64,000 nucleotides of DNA, taken from NCBI GenBank assembly GCA_001773215.1, contig MEWB01000001.1, positions 478,479 through 542,478 of the forward strand, written 5' to 3'. A model generated the notes under the pieces. It had not been told where the DNA came from. It ran no database searches and saw only the letters and a program-made list of their open reading frames with translations. The stretch comes from a candidate division WWE3 bacterium RIFOXYC1_FULL_40_10 (GTDB lineage Bacteria; Patescibacteriota; WWE3; UBA101185; UBA10185). The first letter of the stretch is position 1; every line of letters starts with the position of its first letter. The position numbers and the translations under genes are program-made. This document shows positions 5,755 through 33,434 of the stretch, piece after piece.

Positions 5755-7908
5755 CTAGTAATTTATCCCAAACCACCCAAGGATATTCTGCCACAAGGAT
5801 TTCCTTAGTGGTTTTGTTTCCTCAACAACCGGTACCTGTATTCCCTGAGCCTGAGGCTGCACCTCCAAAGGCTGAATCTCCTCTATTGGGGCAGTTACTT
5901 GAATCTGCTCCACAGGTTGGATCACCTCCTCAACCAGCACCGGCGGGGTTGGCTCTATCGCGAGTTTTGTATTTACCTCGATGATTTGCTTAAAAGTATG
6001 GCTAACATTTCCTGCCTCATCTTTTAACCTGATGTATAAATTCTTTTTCCCATCATAATCGAACCCTAACTGAATATCCCCATCGTATTCTTTCCACTTC
6101 GCATTCTTGAAATCCTTGTTTTGGGAAACCTTTATATACTCAACTTTCGTTGTGGAATCGCGAGTATCAAAATATAACTTGAAAGATCTCTCATCAGCTT
6201 CTAGAGTTTTTGTGCCTATCTCAATTAAGTTATTTCTGGACAATCCAACCAACTGATTGTTCTCTCCCGGACCCTCTTTATCTAACGTAAAATCCTTGTG
6301 AGTAAATAAACTTTCCGGCATATAAATATCATTTTGGTCGAACGATCTTAGGAATATCCCATTTTCCCCCTCATTAAACGAGGACACGTCGCATGAAAAT
6401 TCCTCGGTGGATTCGTCGAAGGTTCCATCAGATGGAATACAAGCTACCCATACCCCCGGTACCGCACTTGATGTACTCCATTCTACCCCCTTTACAGAGT
6501 ATCCGGGCTCACCGGAAACAGCAGTACCTTCTAGTCCTACATTACTGGCAGTGCCTGATACAGTAAGAGTAGGATTACCGTGTGATAACTCATAGATGTT
6601 TGCCTGGGACACTCCAGTTGCGCTTGCGGCTCCACCTGCCTGAGTAACTGCAATGTCCATCCAGTCATCATTGTCAATATCCCCTGCAGTTACATAAGCG
6701 CCAAAGGCAGTGTTTCCACTAGTCTTTATTTCCGATAACCAAGCCGATGATATGTCTAACTCTCCGACTTCGTTCTTATAAATAAAAAGCTTACCGTGCC
6801 GACTCCCACCAGCTTTGCTTGCTTGGTAGGCACCTACCATTAATTCTGGATAGCCATCGTTAGTAACATCTCGAATGTCGATGCTCCTTCCGAAATTATC
6901 ATTAGCACCTACGCCATCAGCTGCTCCACTGATAGTCAAGTCGGCAGTTGCATTTGTATAAGAAGCTGAGAAACTTGCTCTACCGTACCAACACAATACG
7001 CGCCCTGTACTACCAGAGTAACCATATGCCCCTACACAAAAATCGTCTTTTCCGTCGGAATTTAAATCACCAACGGCTTCGGTGAAACCACGGCCAAAGT
7101 TATCTTCCGCGGCGGCGGCCACAAAGTCCACTTCACTAAAATTCCCGGCCCCATCACTCAAAAGCAACACACCGTCTTTTCCCGAAGCACCAGCGAAAAA
7201 ATCGAAAACTAGGATGTCGTCGTTTCCATCACCGTTAAAATCCCCCGAAAGCATACCTCCATACCCCTCCGATGAACCCCCTGTGATGCTTATTGTCGCC
7301 CAAGGTGCGGCAAAATTAAAAGTGTCACTCGAATTCTGATAAACACGTATTTTATTAATTCCCCCAGTAGCCCAGGATAACACTGCAATATCCCTTCCAC
7401 CCGCACCATCGAAATTACCCGAGGTAGACGCCGGTCCGGTCCATTTCATATCTGTCGCATTTCCCACTTTACTTAAATCAGCAGTTGAAGCAGAGATATT
7501 TCCGGAAAAATCATCCCCATAGAAAGTATAAAATTTTCCATAATTAGTGTTATATGCATAGGCACCTGTGAGAATGTCCTTTTTACCATCACTATTAACG
7601 TCCCCCAATGAAAAACCGCCAAATTCAAAATAGGCCATATATGTTGTCGCCTCATCAATGAATGTTGCGTCTACCACATTATTAAAAGCAGCTCCCCCAT
7701 AATAAACGTAAATTCTGCCAATAGATTCAGGCGCATATCCTACGAGAACATCATCGTAACCATCTCCGTTAATATCATCAATTTTTACAGGGAATCCAAA
7801 ATAATTAGAACTATTTGAAAGTGTGCTCATTGTTGTTAGAGTAGGAGCCGCGTAAACCGTTCCAGTAATCATTATGAGCAGAAATAACGATAACAGTTTT
7901 TTATTCAC
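5755..7908 (-). CDS. Large surface protein with FG-GAP beta-propeller repeats, shared C-terminal module and WQNILGWFGINY tail (GTG start in ORF track; alternative ATG at codon 13)
   Basis: 717-aa ORF with signal peptide and DINGDGYDDV/DFNGDGNDD motifs. Module roughly 70% identical by eye to that of 67..2496. Pro/Gln/Val-rich linker. Conserved C-terminus. Confidence 0.75.
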   Translation of the reverse strand: MNKKLLSLFLLIMITGTVYAAPTLTTMSTLSNSSNYFGFPVKIDDINGDGYDDVLVGYAPESIGRIYVYYGGAAFNNVVDATFIDEATTYMAYFEFGGFSLGDVNSDGKKDILTGAYAYNTNYGKFYTFYGDDFSGNISASTADLSKVGNATDMKWTGPASTSGNFDGAGGRDIAVLSWATGGINKIRVYQNSSDTFNFAAPWATISITGGSSEGYGGMLSGDFNGDGNDDILVFDFFAGASGKDGVLLLSDGAGNFSEVDFVAAAAEDNFGRGFTEAVGDLNSDGKDDFCVGAYGYSGSTGRVLCWYGRASFSASYTNATADLTISGAADGVGANDNFGRSIDIRDVTNDGYPELMVGAYQASKAGGSRHGKLFIYKNEVGELDISSAWLSEIKTSGNTAFGAYVTAGDIDNDDWMDIAVTQAGGAASATGVSQANIYELSHGNPTLTVSGTASNVGLEGTAVSGEPGYSVKGVEWSTSSAVPGVWVACIPSDGTFDESTEEFSCDVSSFNEGENGIFLRSFDQNDIYMPESLFTHKDFTLDKEGPGENNQLVGLSRNNLIEIGTKTLEADERSFKLYFDTRDSTTKVEYIKVSQNKDFKNAKWKEYDGDIQLGFDYDGKKNLYIRLKDEAGNVSHTFKQIIEVNTKLAIEPTPPVLVEEVIQPVEQIQVTAPIEEIQPLEVQPQAQGIQVPVVEETKPLRKSLWQNILGWFGINY

Positions 7909-21144: not shown

Positions 21145-22854
21145 ATGAAAGCCAGACAATATCTTTATTTTGTATTCTCGGTAATATTGCTAAGTCATAT
21201 ACAAGTTGCGGCGTTTGAGGCTCAGTTCGCAACCGAATATCTGGTTGATTTCAGCATCCAACAAAACGGCGAAACCCAGGTTAACCAGCAAATTAACATA
21301 ACCAACCTAAAAGACGATGTAATCGCAACTAGCTATAGCTTTACCATAAAGTACTTCGAAATATTCGACGTAAGTGCCCAAGCTAACGGTAACAAGGCAA
21401 CTCCCAAAGTTGAGACTTCCGGAAACGAAACTACCATAGTTGTAAATATTGACGACTACGTAATAGGCAAAGGCAGACAAAACAAAATCGAGTTAACATA
21501 TAAGACACTGGATATAGCAACTAAGGTGGGTGAGGTGTGGAACATTAATATCCCAAAAACCCAGCTTAACAATGATACTTCCTCATATAACGTAACACTT
21601 GAGGTTAAGGAGTCATTGGGACCGAAAATATTCATCTCTCCTGTGCCCGACACCGAAAAATCCTCAGATGGAAACCATGTTTTTAATTTCACAAAAGAGT
21701 CGCTACGCAATACCGGAATTTCCGCATCCTTTGGAAGCTATCAAGTATTAAATTTTAAATTGAAATATCAAATTTCCAACCCTAACTATTTTTATGCAAA
21801 CTATGAGGTTGCACTTCCCCCGGACATTAAGATGCTACAGCAAGTTAAATACAGCACCATTACTCCATCCCCAAATAGCATAAAACTGGATGAAGATGGA
21901 AATGCTATTGCTACCTTTAGACTTAAACCAAAGCAGAAACTTCAAATTGAGTTAAATGGGGCAGCACGCTTAACAGGTAGGCAAATAAATCCGGCTTTCG
22001 GAGGTAAATTTGAATCCTTACCAAATACTTTGATTGAAAAGTATACAAAAGCTCAAAAATATTGGGAATCTGACTCAAAAGAAATAAAAGCAATTAGTAA
22101 CAAAATTATAGATACCAACCTTAATGTAAGCCAGAACGCTCAAAAAGCATACGATTACGTTACTGAAACATTATCCTATAACTTTGATGCACTAAAGGAA
22201 AACTTCATCGAAAGGGAAGGAGCGGTTGCCGCGGCGAACAATAAAAAACCTTTCACATGTATGGAATTTACGGACCTATTTGTAGCACTTGCCCGATCAA
22301 TGGGGATCCCTGCCCGGGAAATTAATGGATACGCTATTAACTCGGGAGAAACCACCAAACCTGTGTCGATTCAATTAAAGAATGGGGATTTGCTCCATTC
22401 GTGGGCTGAGTACTATGATCCTTTTTACGGTTGGGTACAGGTTGATCCAACTTGGGGAAATACATCCGGCATTGATTACTTCACCAAGTTAGATACTAAT
22501 CATCTCGCATTTGTAGTTAAAGGTATAGATTCTGAATATCCCTACCCGGCAGGCAGTTATAGGTTCAGCGATGAAGGCAAGTTAGTTGAGGTCGACTATG
22601 CACTTCAGGGCAGTCAAACACCGTTTGATACTTCACTTGAATTTAAGAAGTCGTTAAGCCTAAATTTAATCAAAATTATAAACGGAAACCAAAAGTACGA
22701 GGTTGAGAATTCTGGTGAGACTTTTGTATACGATATAGATAAAACCGGGCTAAATTTAGCTCCCAAACAAAAAGCCACAATCTGGATAAATAATACTGTG
22801 AAAGGGGTAAGTTATAAGGATTATGAGGATAAGGAATCTTTCTGGCCGTTATAA
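21145..22854 (+). CDS. Secreted transglutaminase-like (Cys-protease fold) domain protein
   Basis: Signal peptide. Core motif KPFTCMEFTDLFVALARSMGIPAREINGYA (TGase-like Cys). Downstream HSWAEYY/D and WVQVDPTW (His/Asp of the triad). Confidence 0.6.
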   Translation: MKARQYLYFVFSVILLSHIQVAAFEAQFATEYLVDFSIQQNGETQVNQQINITNLKDDVIATSYSFTIKYFEIFDVSAQANGNKATPKVETSGNETTIVVNIDDYVIGKGRQNKIELTYKTLDIATKVGEVWNINIPKTQLNNDTSSYNVTLEVKESLGPKIFISPVPDTEKSSDGNHVFNFTKESLRNTGISASFGSYQVLNFKLKYQISNPNYFYANYEVALPPDIKMLQQVKYSTITPSPNSIKLDEDGNAIATFRLKPKQKLQIELNGAARLTGRQINPAFGGKFESLPNTLIEKYTKAQKYWESDSKEIKAISNKIIDTNLNVSQNAQKAYDYVTETLSYNFDALKENFIEREGAVAAANNKKPFTCMEFTDLFVALARSMGIPAREINGYAINSGETTKPVSIQLKNGDLLHSWAEYYDPFYGWVQVDPTWGNTSGIDYFTKLDTNHLAFVVKGIDSEYPYPAGSYRFSDEGKLVEVDYALQGSQTPFDTSLEFKKSLSLNLIKIINGNQKYEVENSGETFVYDIDKTGLNLAPKQKATIWINNTVKGVSYKDYEDKESFWPL

Positions 22855-22897
22855 AAATACCACCCGTAAAATAAACTACGGGTGGAGAAATCGAAAT

Positions 22898-23287
22898 CTA
22901 GCGTCCACGCATTCGAGCAAGTGCCCGAGTAACATAAGATGCCGCCCGGCTCTGAACTTTCTGGAATTTCCGTTTATCCTCCCCATCCAGACCCAGTTCA
23001 AGACTCATAAGAACAGAGGCCAAGGAGTCCGGCGCATTCGACCACCCACGGGAAACAAAGGGTTCGAACTTCAACACCTTCACAGTAACTGTGACCTGAG
23101 TCCGATCCGAGTTAACTTCGCAGGACAGCACTTGGAATTGGCCAACACCGGTTCTGATCACAAACCCATGCTTAGCGGCAGGCTTGTAATGACCCAGAAT
23201 TTTTCCCAAAGATTCACCTTGGAAGATTACCCAATCCAGCTGATAACCCGTTTCGCTATTGATCAGTTCAACAAGGGCATTTTCCAT
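22898..23287 (-). CDS. Hypothetical protein (130 aa) in a ~52% GC islet
   Basis: The minus frame has protein-like composition (MENALVELINSETGYQLDWVIFQG...). The overlapping + ORF 22823..23296 is Arg-rich junk. Lies 19 nt downstream of 23307..23678. Confidence 0.5.
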   Translation of the reverse strand: MENALVELINSETGYQLDWVIFQGESLGKILGHYKPAAKHGFVIRTGVGQFQVLSCEVNSDRTQVTVTVKVLKFEPFVSRGWSNAPDSLASVLMSLELGLDGEDKRKFQKVQSRAASYVTRALARMRGR

Positions 23288-23306
23288 TTTTTCTAACCGC
23301 CTTTTT

Positions 23307-23678
23307 TTACCGAACTGGTTTTCCGCGCCCAAGGTCGGGGTTTGCCGGTGCGACTGAGAGGGGCTTAACATTCAGAACAACAACATAGTATTTCGAGGGA
23401 ATTTCAACAAAATCAGCCCCGCCCGAAGATACGCATTCTTCTACCTGTCCCGGCTCAAACACGTCGGCATGATCGTACTCTCGAATATAGGTGCTTTGCG
23501 GGGGTTTGAACTGTGTCCCTGGCATCAGCACCCCGTCAAAAAAGGCCTGGGCAATTTTTCCCACTTCGAGTGATTCAGGGGAGTGAAACAGAGTCGGCAA
23601 ACCATCCCTTCTTCCCTGCCTATCCCGCTCCTGCACCAACAATACGGTATTCTTTTCAGTCATTTCAGATACTGGCAT
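23307..23678 (-). CDS. Hypothetical protein (~124 aa) in the GC-rich islet, sharing motifs with the small GC-rich protein family
   Basis: Start chosen at MPVSEMTEKN (GGAGG 5 nt upstream). GLPTLFHSPESLEVG and IPSKYYVVVLNV resemble the motifs of 49046..49288 and 49302..49526. Confidence 0.5.
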   Translation of the reverse strand: MPVSEMTEKNTVLLVQERDRQGRRDGLPTLFHSPESLEVGKIAQAFFDGVLMPGTQFKPPQSTYIREYDHADVFEPGQVEECVSSGGADFVEIPSKYYVVVLNVKPLSVAPANPDLGRGKPVR

Positions 23679-23748
23679 TGGGTCCTCCATCTAAAGTTTG
23701 GTTGGAATTTCTATCGGCAATTGTATAATATCAATGACTATAAGTCAA

Positions 23749-26742
23749 TTACGCCCATTGAGTTAGGGCCTGTGCTGTGTAGGATTCCTTACACTTTCTG
23801 AGTCCGGGCAAATCCCCGCTATAGATGAGTTTGCCGCCCTCATCGCCTCCTTCGGGCCCCAGATCAATCACCCAGTCGCTATTAGAAATAACATCCAGAT
23901 TGTGCTCTATTACTAAAACTGTATTCCCACGCGCCGTCAACTTCTTAAAAATGGCAATCAAGTTCTCCAAATCGGCAAAGTGCAACCCAGTAGTAGGCTC
24001 ATCTAATATATACAACGTGCTTCCGGTTGATCTCTTACTTAACTCCAAAGCTAGTTTCACTCTTTGAGCCTCACCGCCCGACAAAGTTGGTGCTGGCTGA
24101 CCAAGTTTTATGTAGCCCAAGCCAACCTCCCACAAAGTTTCTATTTTTCTTTTTATGGCCGGCTGATTTTCAAAAAAACCCAGAGCCTCCTCAACAGTCA
24201 TGTCTAAAACCTCGGAAATATTTTTCCCCTTATATTCTATTTCCAATGCCTCACGGTTATATCTTTTTCCGCCGCAAACATCGCATTTAACATATACATC
24301 AGGCATGAATTGCATTTCTATTTTAATTTGGCCTTCACCTGAGCACGACTCACATCTCCCACCTTTTACGTTGAAACTAAATCTACCAGGGCCATATCCA
24401 CGAATCTTAGCCTCTTGCGTTTGAGCAAATAACTCACGAATATGATCAAATGTTTTTGTATAGGTAGCAGGATTAGACTTTGGAGTACGGCCAATCGGTG
24501 ATTGATCTATAGCTATTAAATTTGTGATATTTTCTATTCCAAGTAATTCTTTTATCGGTTCCGGCTTGTTTTCAATTTTCAATCCGAACATTTGGCGGAG
24601 AGTTTGATACAAGGAATCCATTACTAAAGTGGATTTCCCTGAGCCCGACACTCCTGTAACACAAACTAATTTACCCAAAGGAATTTCCACCGTTATATTC
24701 TTTAGGTTACGGCCCGATGCTTTTACGATTTTTAACGATTTTCCGGCTACTTTTTTCTTGTATCTCTCGTTTTCCGCCAAATCAATTAGCAGCTGTTCGT
24801 CCACTTCTTTTTTTCTAAATACATGCCCAACTTTCAGTTTTCGTGATAAGTACTTTCCAGTGAGTGATTCGGGGTTCTGCTTAATTTCTTCGGGGGTACC
24901 CTCGGCTATCACTCTGCCTCCGTGTTCCCCGGCACCCGGGCCAAAATCAAAGATATAATCACTCTCCAGCATCGTTTCTGTATCATGTTCAACAACCACC
25001 ACGCTATTACCCAAATCTCGCAGGTGATGGAGTGTTGCAATTAGTTTACTTTGGTCATTTTGATGTAAACCAATCGATGGCTCATCCAAGACATATAAAA
25101 CTCCCGAGAGTCCGGCTCCGATTTGGGAAGCTAACCTGATTCTTTGTGCCTCCCCTCCTGATAACTGCCCGGCATTCCTCGCCAATGTTAGGTAGGATAA
25201 CCCCACATCAAGTAAGAATTTAGTTCGATAGGCTATCTCCTTAAGCATTGTCCCTGCTATTTGCTTTTCTCTTTCGGTAAACCTTGCAGGTAAGTTTTTA
25301 ACCCATTCCGCAAAGTCTTTTATTGAAAGCTGAGATATATCGTTAATCGTTAAACTATCAATCACTACCGACAATGCCTCTTTGCTAAGACGCGCACCCT
25401 TGCAAACATCGCAGGGTTCATTGATCATGTACTTTTCAATTTCCTGACGAATGTAGTCTGAGTTGGTTTCCTTATATCTACGCATTAAATTTGGAATTAC
25501 GCCTTCGTATTTGGCATCATAGGTATGTTTACGTCCATGGACATTTGTATAGGTTACTCTAAATCGTTCTTTGCCCGGAACACCATGAAGCAAAATTTCA
25601 ACAGCCTTGCGTTCAAGATCCTTGATAGGCGTGTTTAAATCATAATTATAATTAGAAAATACAGTCTCGATCACTTGTTTAGTCCAGGTATTATGTTCAA
25701 ACATTCTCATCCAAGGCAAAACTCCGCCCTCTGAAACTGAAAGGCGGGGATTTAATAGTAAATCCTCTACTATTGTCTGCTGGATACCTAATCCGTCGCA
25801 TGCACTGCAGGCTCCATGAGGGGAGTTGAATGAAAATGTTCTTGGTTCAATATCCGACAAACTTATATTACAAACAGGGCATGAAAAGTTTTCCGAAAAT
25901 AGATGGTCGGTAAAATCTTTGGGGGTCTGGGTGAAATCAAACTCTTTATCGTTAACAATACTCAAAATTATCGCTCCTTCACTTAATCGCAAGGCCGACT
26001 CAACAGATTGATACACTGCACTTAGCAGAGATTTCTCCGACTCGGAATCTTTTATGCTTTTTCTGCTGACTATATGCCTTGATACTAGAGCCTCAATAGT
26101 ATGCTTGTTCGTTTTTATTAATGTAATATCTTTGGAGACATCTAATATGTTTCCGTCAACTCTCGCTCTCAAAATTCCTTTTTTTCTAAGATTCTCGAAT
26201 AAACCTGAGTACTCCCCTTTTCTATCTCGAACAACCGGAGAGAAAATCATAAACCTAACGCCCCTTTCGGTTGCAAAGTCCGGGTGCTCTTTTACGGTCT
26301 GCATCATTCCATTGGCAATTTCTTCAGAACTTTGTCTTTGTATCTCCCTTCCGCATTGTGGGCAATGCGGATGGCCTACACGAGCATATAATAATCTTAG
26401 GAAGTCGTATATCTCGGTAATAGTTCCAACAGTTGATCTGGGATTTTTGGAGGTCGTCTTTTGGTCAATAGCAATCGCGGGAGAAAGTCCTTCAATTTTA
26501 TCAACATCCGGCTTATCCATAACCCCCAAAAATTGTCTGGCGTAGGCAGATAAGCTTTCCACATATCGCCTCTGTCCTTCTGCATAAATAGTATCCATAG
26601 CTAAAGATGACTTGCCTGATCCTGACACGCCGGTAAAAACGACCATCTTATTTTTTGGAATATTAAGATCTATATTTTTTAAGTTATGCTGTCGAGCGCC
26701 TCGAACCAGAATATGTGTAATAGGTGTAACTTGGTCTGTCAT
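23749..26742 (-). CDS. uvrA: Excinuclease ABC subunit A
   Basis: Two ABC ATPase modules (GVSGSGKSSLA and GVSGSGKSTLV Walker A; LSGGEAQR signatures) and Zn-finger Cys clusters. 997 aa. Confidence 0.95.
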   Translation of the reverse strand: MTDQVTPITHILVRGARQHNLKNIDLNIPKNKMVVFTGVSGSGKSSLAMDTIYAEGQRRYVESLSAYARQFLGVMDKPDVDKIEGLSPAIAIDQKTTSKNPRSTVGTITEIYDFLRLLYARVGHPHCPQCGREIQRQSSEEIANGMMQTVKEHPDFATERGVRFMIFSPVVRDRKGEYSGLFENLRKKGILRARVDGNILDVSKDITLIKTNKHTIEALVSRHIVSRKSIKDSESEKSLLSAVYQSVESALRLSEGAIILSIVNDKEFDFTQTPKDFTDHLFSENFSCPVCNISLSDIEPRTFSFNSPHGACSACDGLGIQQTIVEDLLLNPRLSVSEGGVLPWMRMFEHNTWTKQVIETVFSNYNYDLNTPIKDLERKAVEILLHGVPGKERFRVTYTNVHGRKHTYDAKYEGVIPNLMRRYKETNSDYIRQEIEKYMINEPCDVCKGARLSKEALSVVIDSLTINDISQLSIKDFAEWVKNLPARFTEREKQIAGTMLKEIAYRTKFLLDVGLSYLTLARNAGQLSGGEAQRIRLASQIGAGLSGVLYVLDEPSIGLHQNDQSKLIATLHHLRDLGNSVVVVEHDTETMLESDYIFDFGPGAGEHGGRVIAEGTPEEIKQNPESLTGKYLSRKLKVGHVFRKKEVDEQLLIDLAENERYKKKVAGKSLKIVKASGRNLKNITVEIPLGKLVCVTGVSGSGKSTLVMDSLYQTLRQMFGLKIENKPEPIKELLGIENITNLIAIDQSPIGRTPKSNPATYTKTFDHIRELFAQTQEAKIRGYGPGRFSFNVKGGRCESCSGEGQIKIEMQFMPDVYVKCDVCGGKRYNREALEIEYKGKNISEVLDMTVEEALGFFENQPAIKRKIETLWEVGLGYIKLGQPAPTLSGGEAQRVKLALELSKRSTGSTLYILDEPTTGLHFADLENLIAIFKKLTARGNTVLVIEHNLDVISNSDWVIDLGPEGGDEGGKLIYSGDLPGLRKCKESYTAQALTQWA

Positions 26743-26856: not shown

Positions 26857-27051
26857 TCACTCATACTTACTTCCTTCCAACATCCACTCTTTCACCCCTC
26901 TTCGTCCCTTTAGTTTCAATTTTTTAGGCAATTTCCCGTGATGACATAGAATGTGAAAAACCAGATCTTTATCTGTGCGTGCACGGCTGTTACAAAAAGG
27001 ACACTTGAACTTCCCCTTTAAACCAACTCTAAAAGGACGCCTTGCATTCAT
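26857..27051 (-). CDS. Small basic C2H2-type zinc-finger-like protein (64 aa)
   Basis: CPFC-x12-HILCHH matches C-x2-C-x12-H-x3-H. Lys/Arg-rich. AGGAG RBS 8 nt upstream of the ATG. Confidence 0.55.
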   Translation of the reverse strand: MNARRPFRVGLKGKFKCPFCNSRARTDKDLVFHILCHHGKLPKKLKLKGRRGVKEWMLEGSKYE

Positions 27052-29515: not shown

Positions 29516-30382
29516 CTATTCAAGATATTCACAAGCCAGTTTGAACTCTTTCTTTAGAAGACCTGCTTTGATCAACCGGTCTACCAACCCAAGGAATTCC
29601 TTAAACGCCTCGGGGATACCCTTCAAAAGGACCATCAAACTTTTAAAGCTTTCGATCTGTTCTTTAGTCCTTTTCCCATCCTCGCCAGAACCCAAGAAAT
29701 AACCGTTCCAAAGCTCAAAGGCTCCTGGACAGGACTGCAGGAAAGCAATTAACTCCTGCACGACTTTAGTTTCCATCTCTTCCGCTTTTGCCTGTTCCAA
29801 TTCTTCAGGAGTGTCGACCATGTAGGTGTCCATATCCTGCTGAAGATCCCATTCCTCCTTGGTGATGTTAAAAATCAAACCAAGCCCTTGCTTGTATTCC
29901 CCGATGATCCCCCAGTCAGAGGTGAGATACATAAAATCCCATCTCCCGGGACCCTGGGGTTTAGCCATATTGACTGGATCATATATAAGTTGCCGGGCCT
30001 GACCCTGTTCTCGCCCAAAGAAATCCGGCGAGTTGGCAAGCCCAAGTGCCAATTCATACACCTCCTTATTTTCTTCAGGAACCAGGTTACGAATTGACTC
30101 AAAGTATTCTATCCAAATTATTGCGGATGCCTCCTGTGACAAGTCATCGCCTGTTGCCCTTTTTGGAGGAGTTATGTCTGCTCCCTTATATGGGGTCAAA
30201 AACTCGGCCACATATTCTGCTACATCCTCGCTGACAAGCACTTTCTTCAGCCCCTTCTTGGTTAAATCTTTACCAAGCAAGCCTTCGATCAGCGACCTCT
30301 CCTCCAAGCTCAATCGAGGTATCCATTTTTCGATTTTTGCCCGTAGTGTTGCACTCAAAGGCTTTCCTGTAATCTGATTCAT
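29516..30382 (-). CDS. Hypothetical acidic cytoplasmic protein (288 aa), GC-rich
   Basis: GGAGGA RBS 5 nt upstream of the ATG. N-terminal IPRLSLEERSLIEG weakly resembles the LPRFPVREDSLTLIG motif of the small GC-rich proteins. Confidence 0.55.
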   Translation of the reverse strand: MNQITGKPLSATLRAKIEKWIPRLSLEERSLIEGLLGKDLTKKGLKKVLVSEDVAEYVAEFLTPYKGADITPPKRATGDDLSQEASAIIWIEYFESIRNLVPEENKEVYELALGLANSPDFFGREQGQARQLIYDPVNMAKPQGPGRWDFMYLTSDWGIIGEYKQGLGLIFNITKEEWDLQQDMDTYMVDTPEELEQAKAEEMETKVVQELIAFLQSCPGAFELWNGYFLGSGEDGKRTKEQIESFKSLMVLLKGIPEAFKEFLGLVDRLIKAGLLKKEFKLACEYLE

Positions 30383-32475: not shown

Positions 32476-32575
32476 AACAAACTAAGTTTATCATAGTTTT
32501 GGGTTTTATTTGGTATATTGAATTCTATCGCAAGTGGGTTATCATTTATCAAAACACGATTGAAAGGAGATGACT

Positions 32576-33010
32576 ATGAGTATCTTTAAGATTGGTAAAT
32601 GCTACTCTGCAATTCGAGACGGGGTTTTGCTTGCACCATTTTATGGGCACCAGTCTCCGGTCCTAAAAAGTGGTGACTTGGTACTCGTAACCGGTACTCG
32701 AGGTATGGAACCCGGCTGGTCGGGAACAATCGTAAGAGGAAACAACTGTAATAAGGACGTCACCTTATATGGAAGTGACGGAAACAACTTCGTGGAACAT
32801 AAACTTGAAGATGGTGGCATGTATCGGCTAACTTCCGTAGTCACAGGACACAAGATCGGGCCCACAGCAGATTCCGAGCCAATCCGAGATGTCGTTTTTA
32901 CATTCATATCGCTGGTAGGTATCCGAGGATTTTGGACTTTAATAGAAATCGATAAAATCCGATACTACATCGCATCCGAAGACCTGGGAATACAATTTGA
33001 AAAGGTTTAG
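32576..33010 (+). CDS. Hypothetical beta-rich small protein (~144 aa)
   Basis: AGGAG RBS. The second ATG was chosen because the first has zero spacer. GDLVLVTGTRG motif. Confidence 0.5.
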   Translation: MSIFKIGKCYSAIRDGVLLAPFYGHQSPVLKSGDLVLVTGTRGMEPGWSGTIVRGNNCNKDVTLYGSDGNNFVEHKLEDGGMYRLTSVVTGHKIGPTADSEPIRDVVFTFISLVGIRGFWTLIEIDKIRYYIASEDLGIQFEKV

Positions 33011-33066
33011 ACCTTGCTAAATAAATTCAAGTAACCTATAATACGTATGCCTAACTGGAGGAGTAA

Positions 33067-33396
33067 ATGGACCCCTATCAGATTGAGAATGAAAACAATA
33101 ATACGTACATCCTCAAGCTAATAACTCCGACTACTTTCACAAAAAGAGACGGAACTAAGGTGTATTTAACACCAGGAATCGAGCTCCGAGTCCAAAAGTG
33201 CTGGCCATCTGGGGAGGCGCCTGAGAAACCGACTTGCTGGAAAACTTTCGACTGGCCAATTGTCCAGGTTGTAGTACATACCGGAGCATACAAGGGCACA
33301 GAGTTTGGAATTAACCCTGAATGTCTTGGAAAGTACACATTAAGCAGAGTGATACCCATCCAAATCCAAAAAGCGGAACAATTAAGAATGTTCTAA
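33067..33396 (+). CDS. Hypothetical small Cys-containing protein (109 aa), small GC-rich family member
   Basis: GGAGG RBS. YQIENENNNTYILKLITPT...WPIVQVVVHTG aligns position-for-position with 49046..49288 at Y, I, N, ITP and PxΦΦVΦxTG. Confidence 0.5.
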   Translation: MDPYQIENENNNTYILKLITPTTFTKRDGTKVYLTPGIELRVQKCWPSGEAPEKPTCWKTFDWPIVQVVVHTGAYKGTEFGINPECLGKYTLSRVIPIQIQKAEQLRMF

Positions 33397-33401
33397 CCAA
33401 T

Positions 33402-33434
33402 AAGACCAAGAAAACACTTCTTGGTCTTTTTTTC
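33402..33434 (+). terminator. Rho-independent terminator after the two small genes, upstream of lexA
   Basis: Perfect 11-bp stem AAGACCAAGAA/TTCTTGGTCTT, 5-nt loop, then TTTTTTT. Confidence 0.75.

What the first reader, a model, noticed from the sequence alone, without database searches (positions are those of the whole stretch)
22860..23700. Two-gene islet with strongly elevated GC (~50% vs ~38-42% flanks) between the transglutaminase-like gene and uvrA
Sequence composition (many GCC/CGG/CCC codons) and amino-acid usage (Arg/Gly/Pro/Ala-rich, unlike the Lys/Ile/Asn-rich neighbours) change abruptly over ~840 bp. The stretch contains two co-directional genes, 23307..23678 and 22898..23287, 19 nt apart. 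The upstream protein carries the small-family motifs described in the separate finding (GLPTLFHSPESLEVG and IPSKYYVVVLNV). This is a candidate horizontally acquired module, a toxin/antitoxin pair or a small defense-related pair, of unknown function.
Basis: seen in the sequence. Interest (0 to 1): 0.5.

Follow-up and report, generated by a model that had tools for sequence, protein, structure and literature searches.

The report
Foreign two-gene orphan cassette beside uvrA
A 0.9-kb, GC-rich unit with its own promoter-like and terminator-like signals, carrying two small protein genes that have no detectable relatives anywhere, was inserted between two core genes in one species of the uncultured WWE3 bacteria; the insertion is real, but it is an ordinary kind of event and the function of the genes is unknown.

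Summary
Window 22860-23700 has 49.3% GC against a window mean of 40.5%, the highest of any 841-bp stretch. It holds two co-directional minus-strand genes, A (23307..23678, 123 aa, pI 5.1) and B (22898..23287, 129 aa, pI 9.4), 19 nt apart.

- **Coding:** both show strong codon periodicity that no random ORF of similar length reached. The antisense ORF shows none.
- **Foreign composition:** GC3 is 0.50 against 0.38 in host genes, and codon choice is foreign (Arg CGG 38% vs 7%, Leu CTG 41% vs 10%).
- **Signals:** the unit has a consensus promoter match, a GGAGGA ribosome-binding site and one of only two strong terminator hairpins in the 64 kb.
- **Gain in this lineage:** in 17 related WWE3 loci the transglutaminase-like gene and uvrA abut or nearly so. 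An 18th carries an unrelated 445-nt insert.
- **No relatives:** neither protein matches anything in Pfam, NCBIfam, PADLOC, PHROGs, PDB, phage or plasmid records, or 1.84 billion representative proteins.
- **"Small-family motifs":** not supported.
- **Function:** unresolved. A toxin/antitoxin-like pair is a reasonable guess (about 0.2) with no direct support.

In passing, a second lineage-specific two-gene insert lies at 32570-33428.

The parts
23720..23748 (-). Sigma-70-like promoter, TTGACT-17 nt-TACAAT, starting directly after the uvrA stop codon. A 13-nt perfect palindrome TGACT-TAT-AGTCA (23735-23747) overlaps the -35 hexamer.
   Evidence: Consensus scan gives 10 of 12 matches. The palindrome is unique in the window, but about 1.3 such sites are expected by chance. 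This is a consensus match only, with no transcript data.
23679..23719 (-). AT-rich 5' UTR with a GGAGGA ribosome-binding site 5 nt upstream of the ATG of gene A.
   Evidence: Read from the sequence. Only 11 of 34 host genes have even a loose SD-like motif.
23307..23678 (-). Gene A: 123 aa, acidic (pI 5.1), soluble, no transmembrane segment, no known domain, no homologues.
   Evidence: ORF. Identical public protein P0001, annotated hypothetical, candidate division WWE3. Codon periodicity G1 0.39 and GC1-GC2 0.24, with 0 of 1203 random ORFs reaching the latter. GC1/2/3 = 0.63/0.40/0.50. No family or homologue.
23288..23306 (-). 19-nt A-rich spacer between A and B (AAAAAGGCGGTTAGAAAAA), with no clear SD. 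B is probably translated by coupling or without an SD.
   Evidence: Read from the sequence.
22898..23287 (-). Gene B: 129 aa, basic (pI 9.4), soluble. The low-confidence model shows a beta-rich N-terminal part and a long basic C-terminal helix. No known domain, no homologues.
   Evidence: ORF. P0005 and P0002. Periodicity G1 0.36 and GC1-GC2 0.19, 0 of 1203 random ORFs. Most atypical synonymous codon usage of all 125-codon chunks in the window (z -2.9). pI. Model pLDDT 46. No family or homologue.
22860..22885 (-). Intrinsic terminator: 9-10 bp G+C-rich stem (CCACCCGUA / UACGGGUGG) followed by UAUUUUUAU. It is directional for the minus strand, so it ends the A-B transcript.
   Evidence: dG -17.2 kcal/mol, and one of only two such hairpins in the 64-kb window.

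Best explanation
This is a recently acquired, self-contained, two-gene accessory cassette.

An 894-bp piece of foreign DNA sits exactly between the convergent stop codons of a transglutaminase-like gene and uvrA. It arrived in the lineage of one WWE3 (Candidate Phyla Radiation) species, and both flanking genes remain intact.

Inferred expression:
- Transcription starts at the cassette's own promoter just after the uvrA stop. Read-through from uvrA is also possible, because no terminator separates them.
- An SD-led acidic protein A (123 aa) is made first, then a basic protein B (129 aa) starting 19 nt downstream.
- Transcription stops at a strong hairpin before the transglutaminase-like gene.

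Shown here: foreign composition, real coding signal, absence from relatives, and complete lack of homologues. Inferred: the promoter, the co-transcription, and everything about function.

My functional guess is that A and B act together as an interacting pair of the addiction or abortive-infection type, like a type II toxin/antitoxin, with acidic A neutralising basic B. The cassette would have come from an unsampled phage or other mobile element. I put about 0.85 on 'acquired coding cassette' and only about 0.2 on the TA-like mechanism. The confidence value given (0.6) is for the statement as a whole, weighted toward the acquired-cassette part.
For: Composition:
- GC 0.493 vs 0.405, z 3.7, the highest in the window.
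- GC3 0.50 vs 0.38 +/- 0.03 and GC1 0.60-0.63 vs 0.48.
- Foreign synonymous codon choice; B is the most atypical 125-codon chunk in the window.

Coding:
- G1 and GC1-GC2 periodicity exceed all or nearly all of 1203 random ORFs of at least 120 codons.
- The antisense ORF lacks this signal.

Not RNA:
- No excess RNA folding on either strand.
- No Rfam match.

Signals: promoter, SD and terminator.

Gain in this lineage:
- In 13 loci with the TGase-like protein at 50-52% identity, it abuts uvrA.
- The same holds in the closest relatives known (56-57% identity).
- It also holds in deeper relatives (45-46%). There the gaps run from -18 to +16 nt.
- The C-termini of both flanking proteins are intact.

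Not an assembly artefact: the sequence is identical in independent assemblies from ENA, NCBI and JGI.

Pair-like features: acidic A followed by basic B, 19-nt spacing, and a palindrome over the -35 hexamer.
Against: - Nothing bears directly on function. There is no hit to any TA, defence or phage family.
- There is no homologue among 1.84 billion representative proteins. Genuine TA and defence families are usually widespread.
- No integrase, tRNA, target-site duplication or terminal repeats mark a mobility mechanism.
- The promoter match and the palindrome are each about what chance would give.
- Gain versus ancestral loss rests on parsimony across relatives that are all at most 57% identical in the flanking protein, plus the composition argument.
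- All carriers are one near-clonal population, so selection (dN/dS) could not be measured.
- The structure models are too poor to use (pLDDT 38 and 46).
Confidence: 0.6

Rival explanations
1. Leftover cargo of a phage or other mobile element, in the style of a 'moron'. The unit would have been dropped into the chromosome, and the two proteins would act independently, for example in superinfection exclusion or anti-defence, rather than as a toxin/antidote pair.
For: The unit has its own promoter and terminator, a GC content unlike its neighbours, and is absent from relatives. These match the published description of morons (PMC3594210). Orphan small proteins are typical of phage genomes. The weak Foldseek matches of the B model are all to small uncharacterised phage proteins (best E 2e-3, TMq 0.35).
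Against: There are no phage genes nearby; the flanks are uvrA and a conserved TGase-like gene. There are no PHROG hits, no tblastn hits in 50,697 phage records and none in IMG/VR. The fold matches rest on a model with pLDDT 46 and are not reliable.
Confidence: 0.25
2. Accessory DNA-damage-response genes expressed with uvrA as part of the SOS or nucleotide-excision-repair neighbourhood (lexA, uvrB, uvrA and uvrC all lie within 14 kb).
For: The genes lie directly downstream of uvrA, in the same direction, with no terminator in between.
Against: Relatives keep the same uvr/lexA neighbourhood without these genes. The cassette has its own promoter. The promoter palindrome occurs nowhere else in the window. 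A motif shared with the lexA upstream region is not enriched: 12 matches against 7.9 expected.
Confidence: 0.07
3. Core genes of the lineage that simply have unusual composition.
For: The cassette is present and identical in every contig of this species that was recovered.
Against: It is absent at the junction from all 18 related loci that keep the synteny, both the closest and the deeper-branching ones. GC3 and codon choice are foreign, not only the amino-acid content. There are no homologues anywhere.
Confidence: 0.03
4. Not protein-coding: chance ORFs in an inserted non-coding fragment, a structured RNA, or an assembly chimera.
For: Three long ORFs overlap on both strands. AlphaFold confidence is low. 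There are no homologues to confirm coding. One public scaffold (L022/L023) is chimeric inside gene B.
Against: The periodicity test gave 0 of 1203 random ORFs reaching the GC1-GC2 of A or B, and at most 0.8% reaching their G1. The SD is correctly placed. Folding z-scores are +1.4 and -0.3 and there are no Rfam hits. The sequence is identical across independent assemblies of several samples, on contigs of up to 0.9 Mb.
Confidence: 0.04

Closest known systems
Phage 'morons' (independent transcription units added between conserved genes; Cumby et al. 2012, PMC3594210)
   Same: It is an obvious addition relative to related genomes. Its GC content differs from the flanking genes. It has its own promoter-like and terminator-like elements and small genes of unknown function.
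   Different: It sits in a bacterial chromosome between uvrA and a conserved TGase-like gene, not in a phage or prophage. No phage-related protein lies nearby and there are no PHROG or phage-database matches.
Type II toxin-antitoxin modules
   Same: Two small co-directional genes with a short spacer, an acidic upstream and a basic downstream product. A palindrome overlaps the promoter. The unit is an isolated insert of foreign composition.
   Different: There is no match to any toxin or antitoxin family in Pfam, NCBIfam or PADLOC. No DNA-binding domain is recognisable in A. There are no homologues at all, whereas TA families are normally spread widely by transfer.
Classical genomic islands and integron cassettes
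   Same: Lineage-specific DNA of deviating composition.
   Different: It is only 0.9 kb. There is no tRNA, integrase, flanking direct repeats or attC-like imperfect inverted repeat. Unlike integron cassettes, it brings its own promoter.
Lineage-specific orphan (ORFan) genes of CPR/Patescibacteria genomes
   Same: Small hypothetical proteins without homologues in a streamlined genome. The same block holds further lineage-specific small genes: p64, p288, p146 and p109.
   Different: A and B deviate much more in GC than the other orphans of the block (0.50 against 0.41-0.46), which suggests a more recent arrival or a different source.

Membership tests
Type II toxin-antitoxin system | Two adjacent, co-directional small genes forming one operon | tested here: met
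   A and B are 19 nt apart on the same strand, with one promoter-like site upstream and one terminator downstream.
Type II toxin-antitoxin system | Toxin and/or antitoxin belongs to a recognised family or fold | tested here: not met
   No hits at E <= 1 in Pfam, NCBIfam or PADLOC. No PDB sequence match. Fold searches were uninformative because the models are poor.
Type II toxin-antitoxin system | Antitoxin with a DNA-binding domain that autoregulates at a palindromic operator | tested here: inconclusive
   A 13-nt palindrome overlaps the -35 hexamer, but about 1.3 such sites are expected by chance in the window. No DNA-binding domain was detected in A.
Type II toxin-antitoxin system | Toxin arrests growth and the antitoxin neutralises it by direct binding | not testable with these tools
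   This needs expression experiments.
Phage moron | Extra DNA relative to related genomes at a conserved position | tested here: met
   The junction is empty (from an 18-nt overlap up to about 50 nt) in 17 of 18 related loci.
Phage moron | GC content different from the surrounding genes | tested here: met
   0.493 vs 0.405, z 3.7; GC3 0.50 vs 0.38.
Phage moron | Own promoter and terminator | tested here: met
   Consensus-level only: TTGACT-17-TACAAT and a hairpin of -17.2 kcal/mol with a U-tract. There is no transcript evidence.
Phage moron | Located within a phage or prophage genome | tested here: not met
   The flanks are uvrA and a conserved TGase-like gene inside a cell-wall and repair gene block. 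There are no PHROG or phage hits.
Known anti-phage defence systems (PADLOC-DB) | At least one protein matching a defence-system model | tested here: not met
   No PADLOC hits for A, B or the longer form of B at E <= 1.
Genomic island / integron cassette | Integrase, tRNA target, flanking direct repeats or an attC site | tested here: not met
   There are no tRNAs in the window and no convincing flanking repeats. The only strong inverted repeat inside the unit is the terminator.
SOS (LexA) regulon member | Operator motif shared with lexA and other SOS promoters | tested here: not met
   The palindrome is unique to this promoter. The motif shared with the lexA upstream region is not enriched: 12 matches against 7.9 expected. 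The LexA box of WWE3 is not known, so this test is weak.

The most novel reading that the evidence does not exclude
A and B would be a two-protein toxin/antidote or abortive-infection module of an entirely undescribed sequence family. It would be confined, as far as 15 billion public proteins show, to one CPR species. It would also be one of several small foreign cassettes that this streamlined genome has slotted into the junctions of its uvr/lexA block.
Probability: 0.18. Interest if true: 0.55.

Novelty: new member of a known kind. Interest (0 to 1): 0.3.

Why it matters
CPR bacteria have very small genomes and are thought to carry few defence or addiction modules. A clean, datable gain of a self-contained two-gene unit shows that even these genomes pick up and fix small foreign cassettes, here at the junction of two convergent core genes.

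The pair, and the neighbouring p146/p109 pair, are compact candidates for synthesis and toxicity or neutralisation assays. They could reveal protein families that homology-based catalogues cannot see.

Without such an assay, this remains one more orphan islet.

Tried and rejected
- **Family libraries.** Pfam, NCBIfam, PADLOC and PHROGs gave nothing for A, B, the longer form of B, the antisense ORF or the near-open plus-strand frame 1 (stops written as X).
- **Homologue searches.** The word-indexed search of 5.8 billion proteins and the full phmmer scan of 1.84 billion representatives with A+B concatenated returned only the proteins themselves.
- **Other sequence collections.** PDB sequences, phage and plasmid tblastn and IMG/VR gave nothing.
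- **Paralogues.**
  - A vs B gave nothing.
  - A and B against the window gave nothing.
  - A and B vs p146 and p109 gave z <= 2.4.
  - The 'small-family motifs' idea is therefore rejected.
- **SOS operator idea.** Rejected.
- **Structured RNA.** Rejected.
- **Mobility signatures.** None found. A 12-nt perfect inverted repeat (22776-87 / 23893-904) lies inside the two flanking coding sequences, and I treat it as chance.
- **dN/dS.** Not possible. All carriers are at least 99.9% identical, and the few variants (A V78G; B L5H and I21M) were found by looking for variant proteins, so they are biased.
- **A second host?** The B-like protein in MAG RIFOXYA2_FULL_46_9 is a chimeric scaffold end carrying the same species' sequence.

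Full report
**Source and observation.** The window matches genomes annotated as candidate division WWE3 (Candidate Phyla Radiation), for example RIFOXYB2_FULL_41_6. Stretch 22860-23700 has 49.3% GC. The mean for 841-bp windows is 40.5% (sd 2.4), giving z = 3.7, and no other window of that size reaches the value (profile). At 60-nt resolution GC steps from 0.33 to 0.48 at 22860 and falls from 0.57 to 0.38 near 23640.

**Are these real genes?** Three long ORFs overlap in this stretch, including a 157-aa antisense ORF, so I tested coding signal in a way that does not depend on host codon usage.
- A and B have G at codon position 1 in 39% and 36% of codons. GC1 minus GC2 is 0.24 and 0.19.
- Among 1203 ORFs of at least 120 codons taken from 3 Mb of first-order Markov sequence built from the islet, none reached these GC1-GC2 values, and at most 0.8% reached the G1 values.
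- The antisense ORF looks random by the same test.
- GC by codon position is 0.63/0.40/0.50 for A and 0.60/0.40/0.50 for B. The 37 long ORFs of the window average 0.48/0.35/0.38, with sd about 0.035. That is the pattern of genuine genes from a genome of about 50% GC.
- Synonymous codon choice differs from the host: Arg CGG 38% vs 7%, Leu CTG 41% vs 10%, Leu TTA 0% vs 26%. B scores lower than all 123 host chunks of 125 codons.
- Neither strand folds better than shuffled controls (z +1.36 and -0.31), and Rfam finds nothing. A structured RNA is therefore unlikely.

**Anatomy.** Reading along the minus strand:
- The uvrA stop is followed at once by TTGACT-17 nt-TACAAT (23748-23720). A 13-nt palindrome overlaps the -35 hexamer.
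- An AT-rich leader follows, with GGAGGA 5 nt before the ATG of A. Most host genes in the window lack an SD; only 11 of 34 have even a loose one.
- Gene A is followed by a 19-nt A-rich spacer and then gene B.
- A 9-10 bp G+C-rich hairpin with a U-tract comes last (22885-22860, -17.2 kcal/mol). It is one of only two such terminators in the whole 64 kb.
- No terminator separates uvrA from A, so read-through from uvrA is also possible.
- A is acidic (pI 5.1) and B basic (pI 9.4). Both are soluble, with no membrane segment.

**Presence or absence in relatives.**
- All contigs that encode A or B are at least 99.9% identical to the window over 3-20 kb. They come from independent assemblies in ENA, NCBI and JGI, on contigs of up to 0.9 Mb. 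The islet is therefore not an assembly artefact, but it is known from only one near-clonal species.
- The transglutaminase-like neighbour has many WWE3 homologues, and the next best is only 57% identical.
- I examined 18 related loci that keep the uvrC-TGase-uvrA order:
  - six GTDB species genomes and seven JGI contigs at 50-52% TGase identity;
  - the closest known relatives at 56-57%;
  - two deeper ones at 45-46%;
  - one at 54%.
- In 17 of the 18 the stop codons of the TGase-like gene and uvrA abut or overlap, from an 18-nt overlap up to about 50 nt apart. None has a tblastn match to A or B.
- The C-terminal ends of both flanking proteins in the window align to the end with those of relatives.
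- The empty junction is therefore the ancestral state, and the 894-bp unit is a gain. Its composition has not drifted toward the host's, which points to a recent gain.

**Homology.**
- A and B have no hit at E <= 1 in Pfam, NCBIfam, PADLOC or PHROGs.
- They have no PDB sequence relative.
- They have no tblastn hit in phage or plasmid collections and none in IMG/VR.
- The word-indexed search of 5.8 billion proteins and a full phmmer scan of 1.84 billion representatives returned only the proteins themselves.
- A and B are not related to each other and have no paralogue in the window.

**What it most likely is.**
- Shown: a recently acquired, self-contained bicistronic coding cassette of foreign composition, inserted between two convergent core genes.
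- Inferred: the promoter, the operon structure and the function.
- In anatomy it is closest to a phage 'moron'. [quoted passage not shown] This one, however, lies in a chromosome with no phage context.
- The pairing of an acidic upstream protein with a basic downstream one, the short spacer and the promoter palindrome recall type II toxin/antitoxin modules. No TA or defence family is matched, and the total lack of homologues is atypical for such families.
- I rate 'acquired coding cassette' at about 0.85 and the TA-like mechanism at about 0.2. Independent phage-type cargo is about 0.25, and a role in the DNA-damage response below 0.1: relatives keep the uvr/lexA block without these genes, and no shared operator was found.

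**Context noticed in passing.** The same conserved block (uvrC, TGase, uvrA, PBP1, uvrB, lexA) carries further lineage-specific small genes.
- p146 and p109 plus the window's other strong terminator (32570-33428) lie between uvrB and lexA. Those two genes are directly divergent in relatives L011 and L012.
- p288 (GC3 0.50) and p64 fill two more junctions.
- One relative (L030) carries an unrelated 445-nt insert, with a membrane-like ORF, at the very same TGase|uvrA junction.
- Junctions between core genes therefore seem to be permissive landing sites in WWE3 genomes. A/B is the most compositionally deviant of these inserts, and probably the youngest.

**Verdict.** The finding is real, and the 'horizontally acquired' reading is supported. 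The functional labels are untested, and the kind of event is ordinary. Interest is modest (0.3). It would rise if an assay showed a new toxin/antidote or defence family.

Noticed in passing
window 32570-33428 (+): A second lineage-specific two-gene insert. It consists of p146 (32570..33010), p109 (33067..33396) and a strong terminator (33402-33428), and lies between uvrB and lexA. In relatives L011 and L012, uvrB and lexA are directly divergent, 176 and 465 nt apart. Codon usage is as atypical as that of gene B, and GC3 is 0.44-0.46. There are no Pfam or PHROG hits and no detectable relation to A or B.
   Followed up: partly
window 22860-22885 and 33402-33428: These are the only two strong intrinsic-terminator hairpins (perfect stem of at least 8 bp, T-rich tail) in the whole 64 kb. 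Each sits directly after one of the two lineage-specific gene pairs.
   Followed up: partly
window 29516-30382 (-) and 26857-27051 (-): p288 has GC 0.46 and GC3 0.50, a GGAGGA SD, no family hit and no tblastn match in relatives. p64 is a Cys/His-rich small ORF in a 382-nt uvrA|PBP gap that is about 37 nt in L007. Four of the five junctions in the uvrC-TGase-uvrA-PBP-uvrB-lexA block carry lineage-specific small genes.
   Followed up: partly
L030 6717-7161: A WWE3 relative of about 36% GC has a different 445-nt insert at the same TGase|uvrA junction. It holds a 99-112 aa ORF with a hydrophobic N-terminus (GC 0.42), followed by a hairpin. Only a 21-residue weak similarity to B was found (9/21 identical, pairwise E 0.004), probably chance.
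   Followed up: partly
L022 1-430 / L023 1-438 (MAG RIFOXYA2_FULL_46_9, scaffold end): This is a chimeric scaffold end. Unrelated sequence is joined inside gene B, across an N-run in the NCBI copy, to sequence 100% identical to the window. The gene was therefore called as a truncated 103-aa 'B' in a differently named MAG. Several other assemblies also break in or next to the islet.
   Followed up: yes
window, start regions of 34 long ORFs: Most genes lack a Shine-Dalgarno motif (11 of 34 with a loose match). Many have a TA-rich, -10-like element a few bases before the start codon, for example uvrA and uvrC, which suggests leaderless or SD-independent initiation. Gene A and p288 stand out with GGAGGA.
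   Followed up: no
window 22776-22787 and 23893-23904: A 12-nt perfect inverted repeat (CACAATCTGGAT / ATCCAGATTGTG) brackets the islet, but both arms lie inside the TGase-like and uvrA coding sequences. About 0.06 such pairs are expected by chance in 1.4 kb, by my own estimate. I treat it as coincidence.
   Followed up: no
window 6300-7400 (inside ORF 5755..7908, -): The second most GC-rich stretch of the window (0.46-0.48), inside a 717-aa ORF. It was not examined.
   Followed up: no
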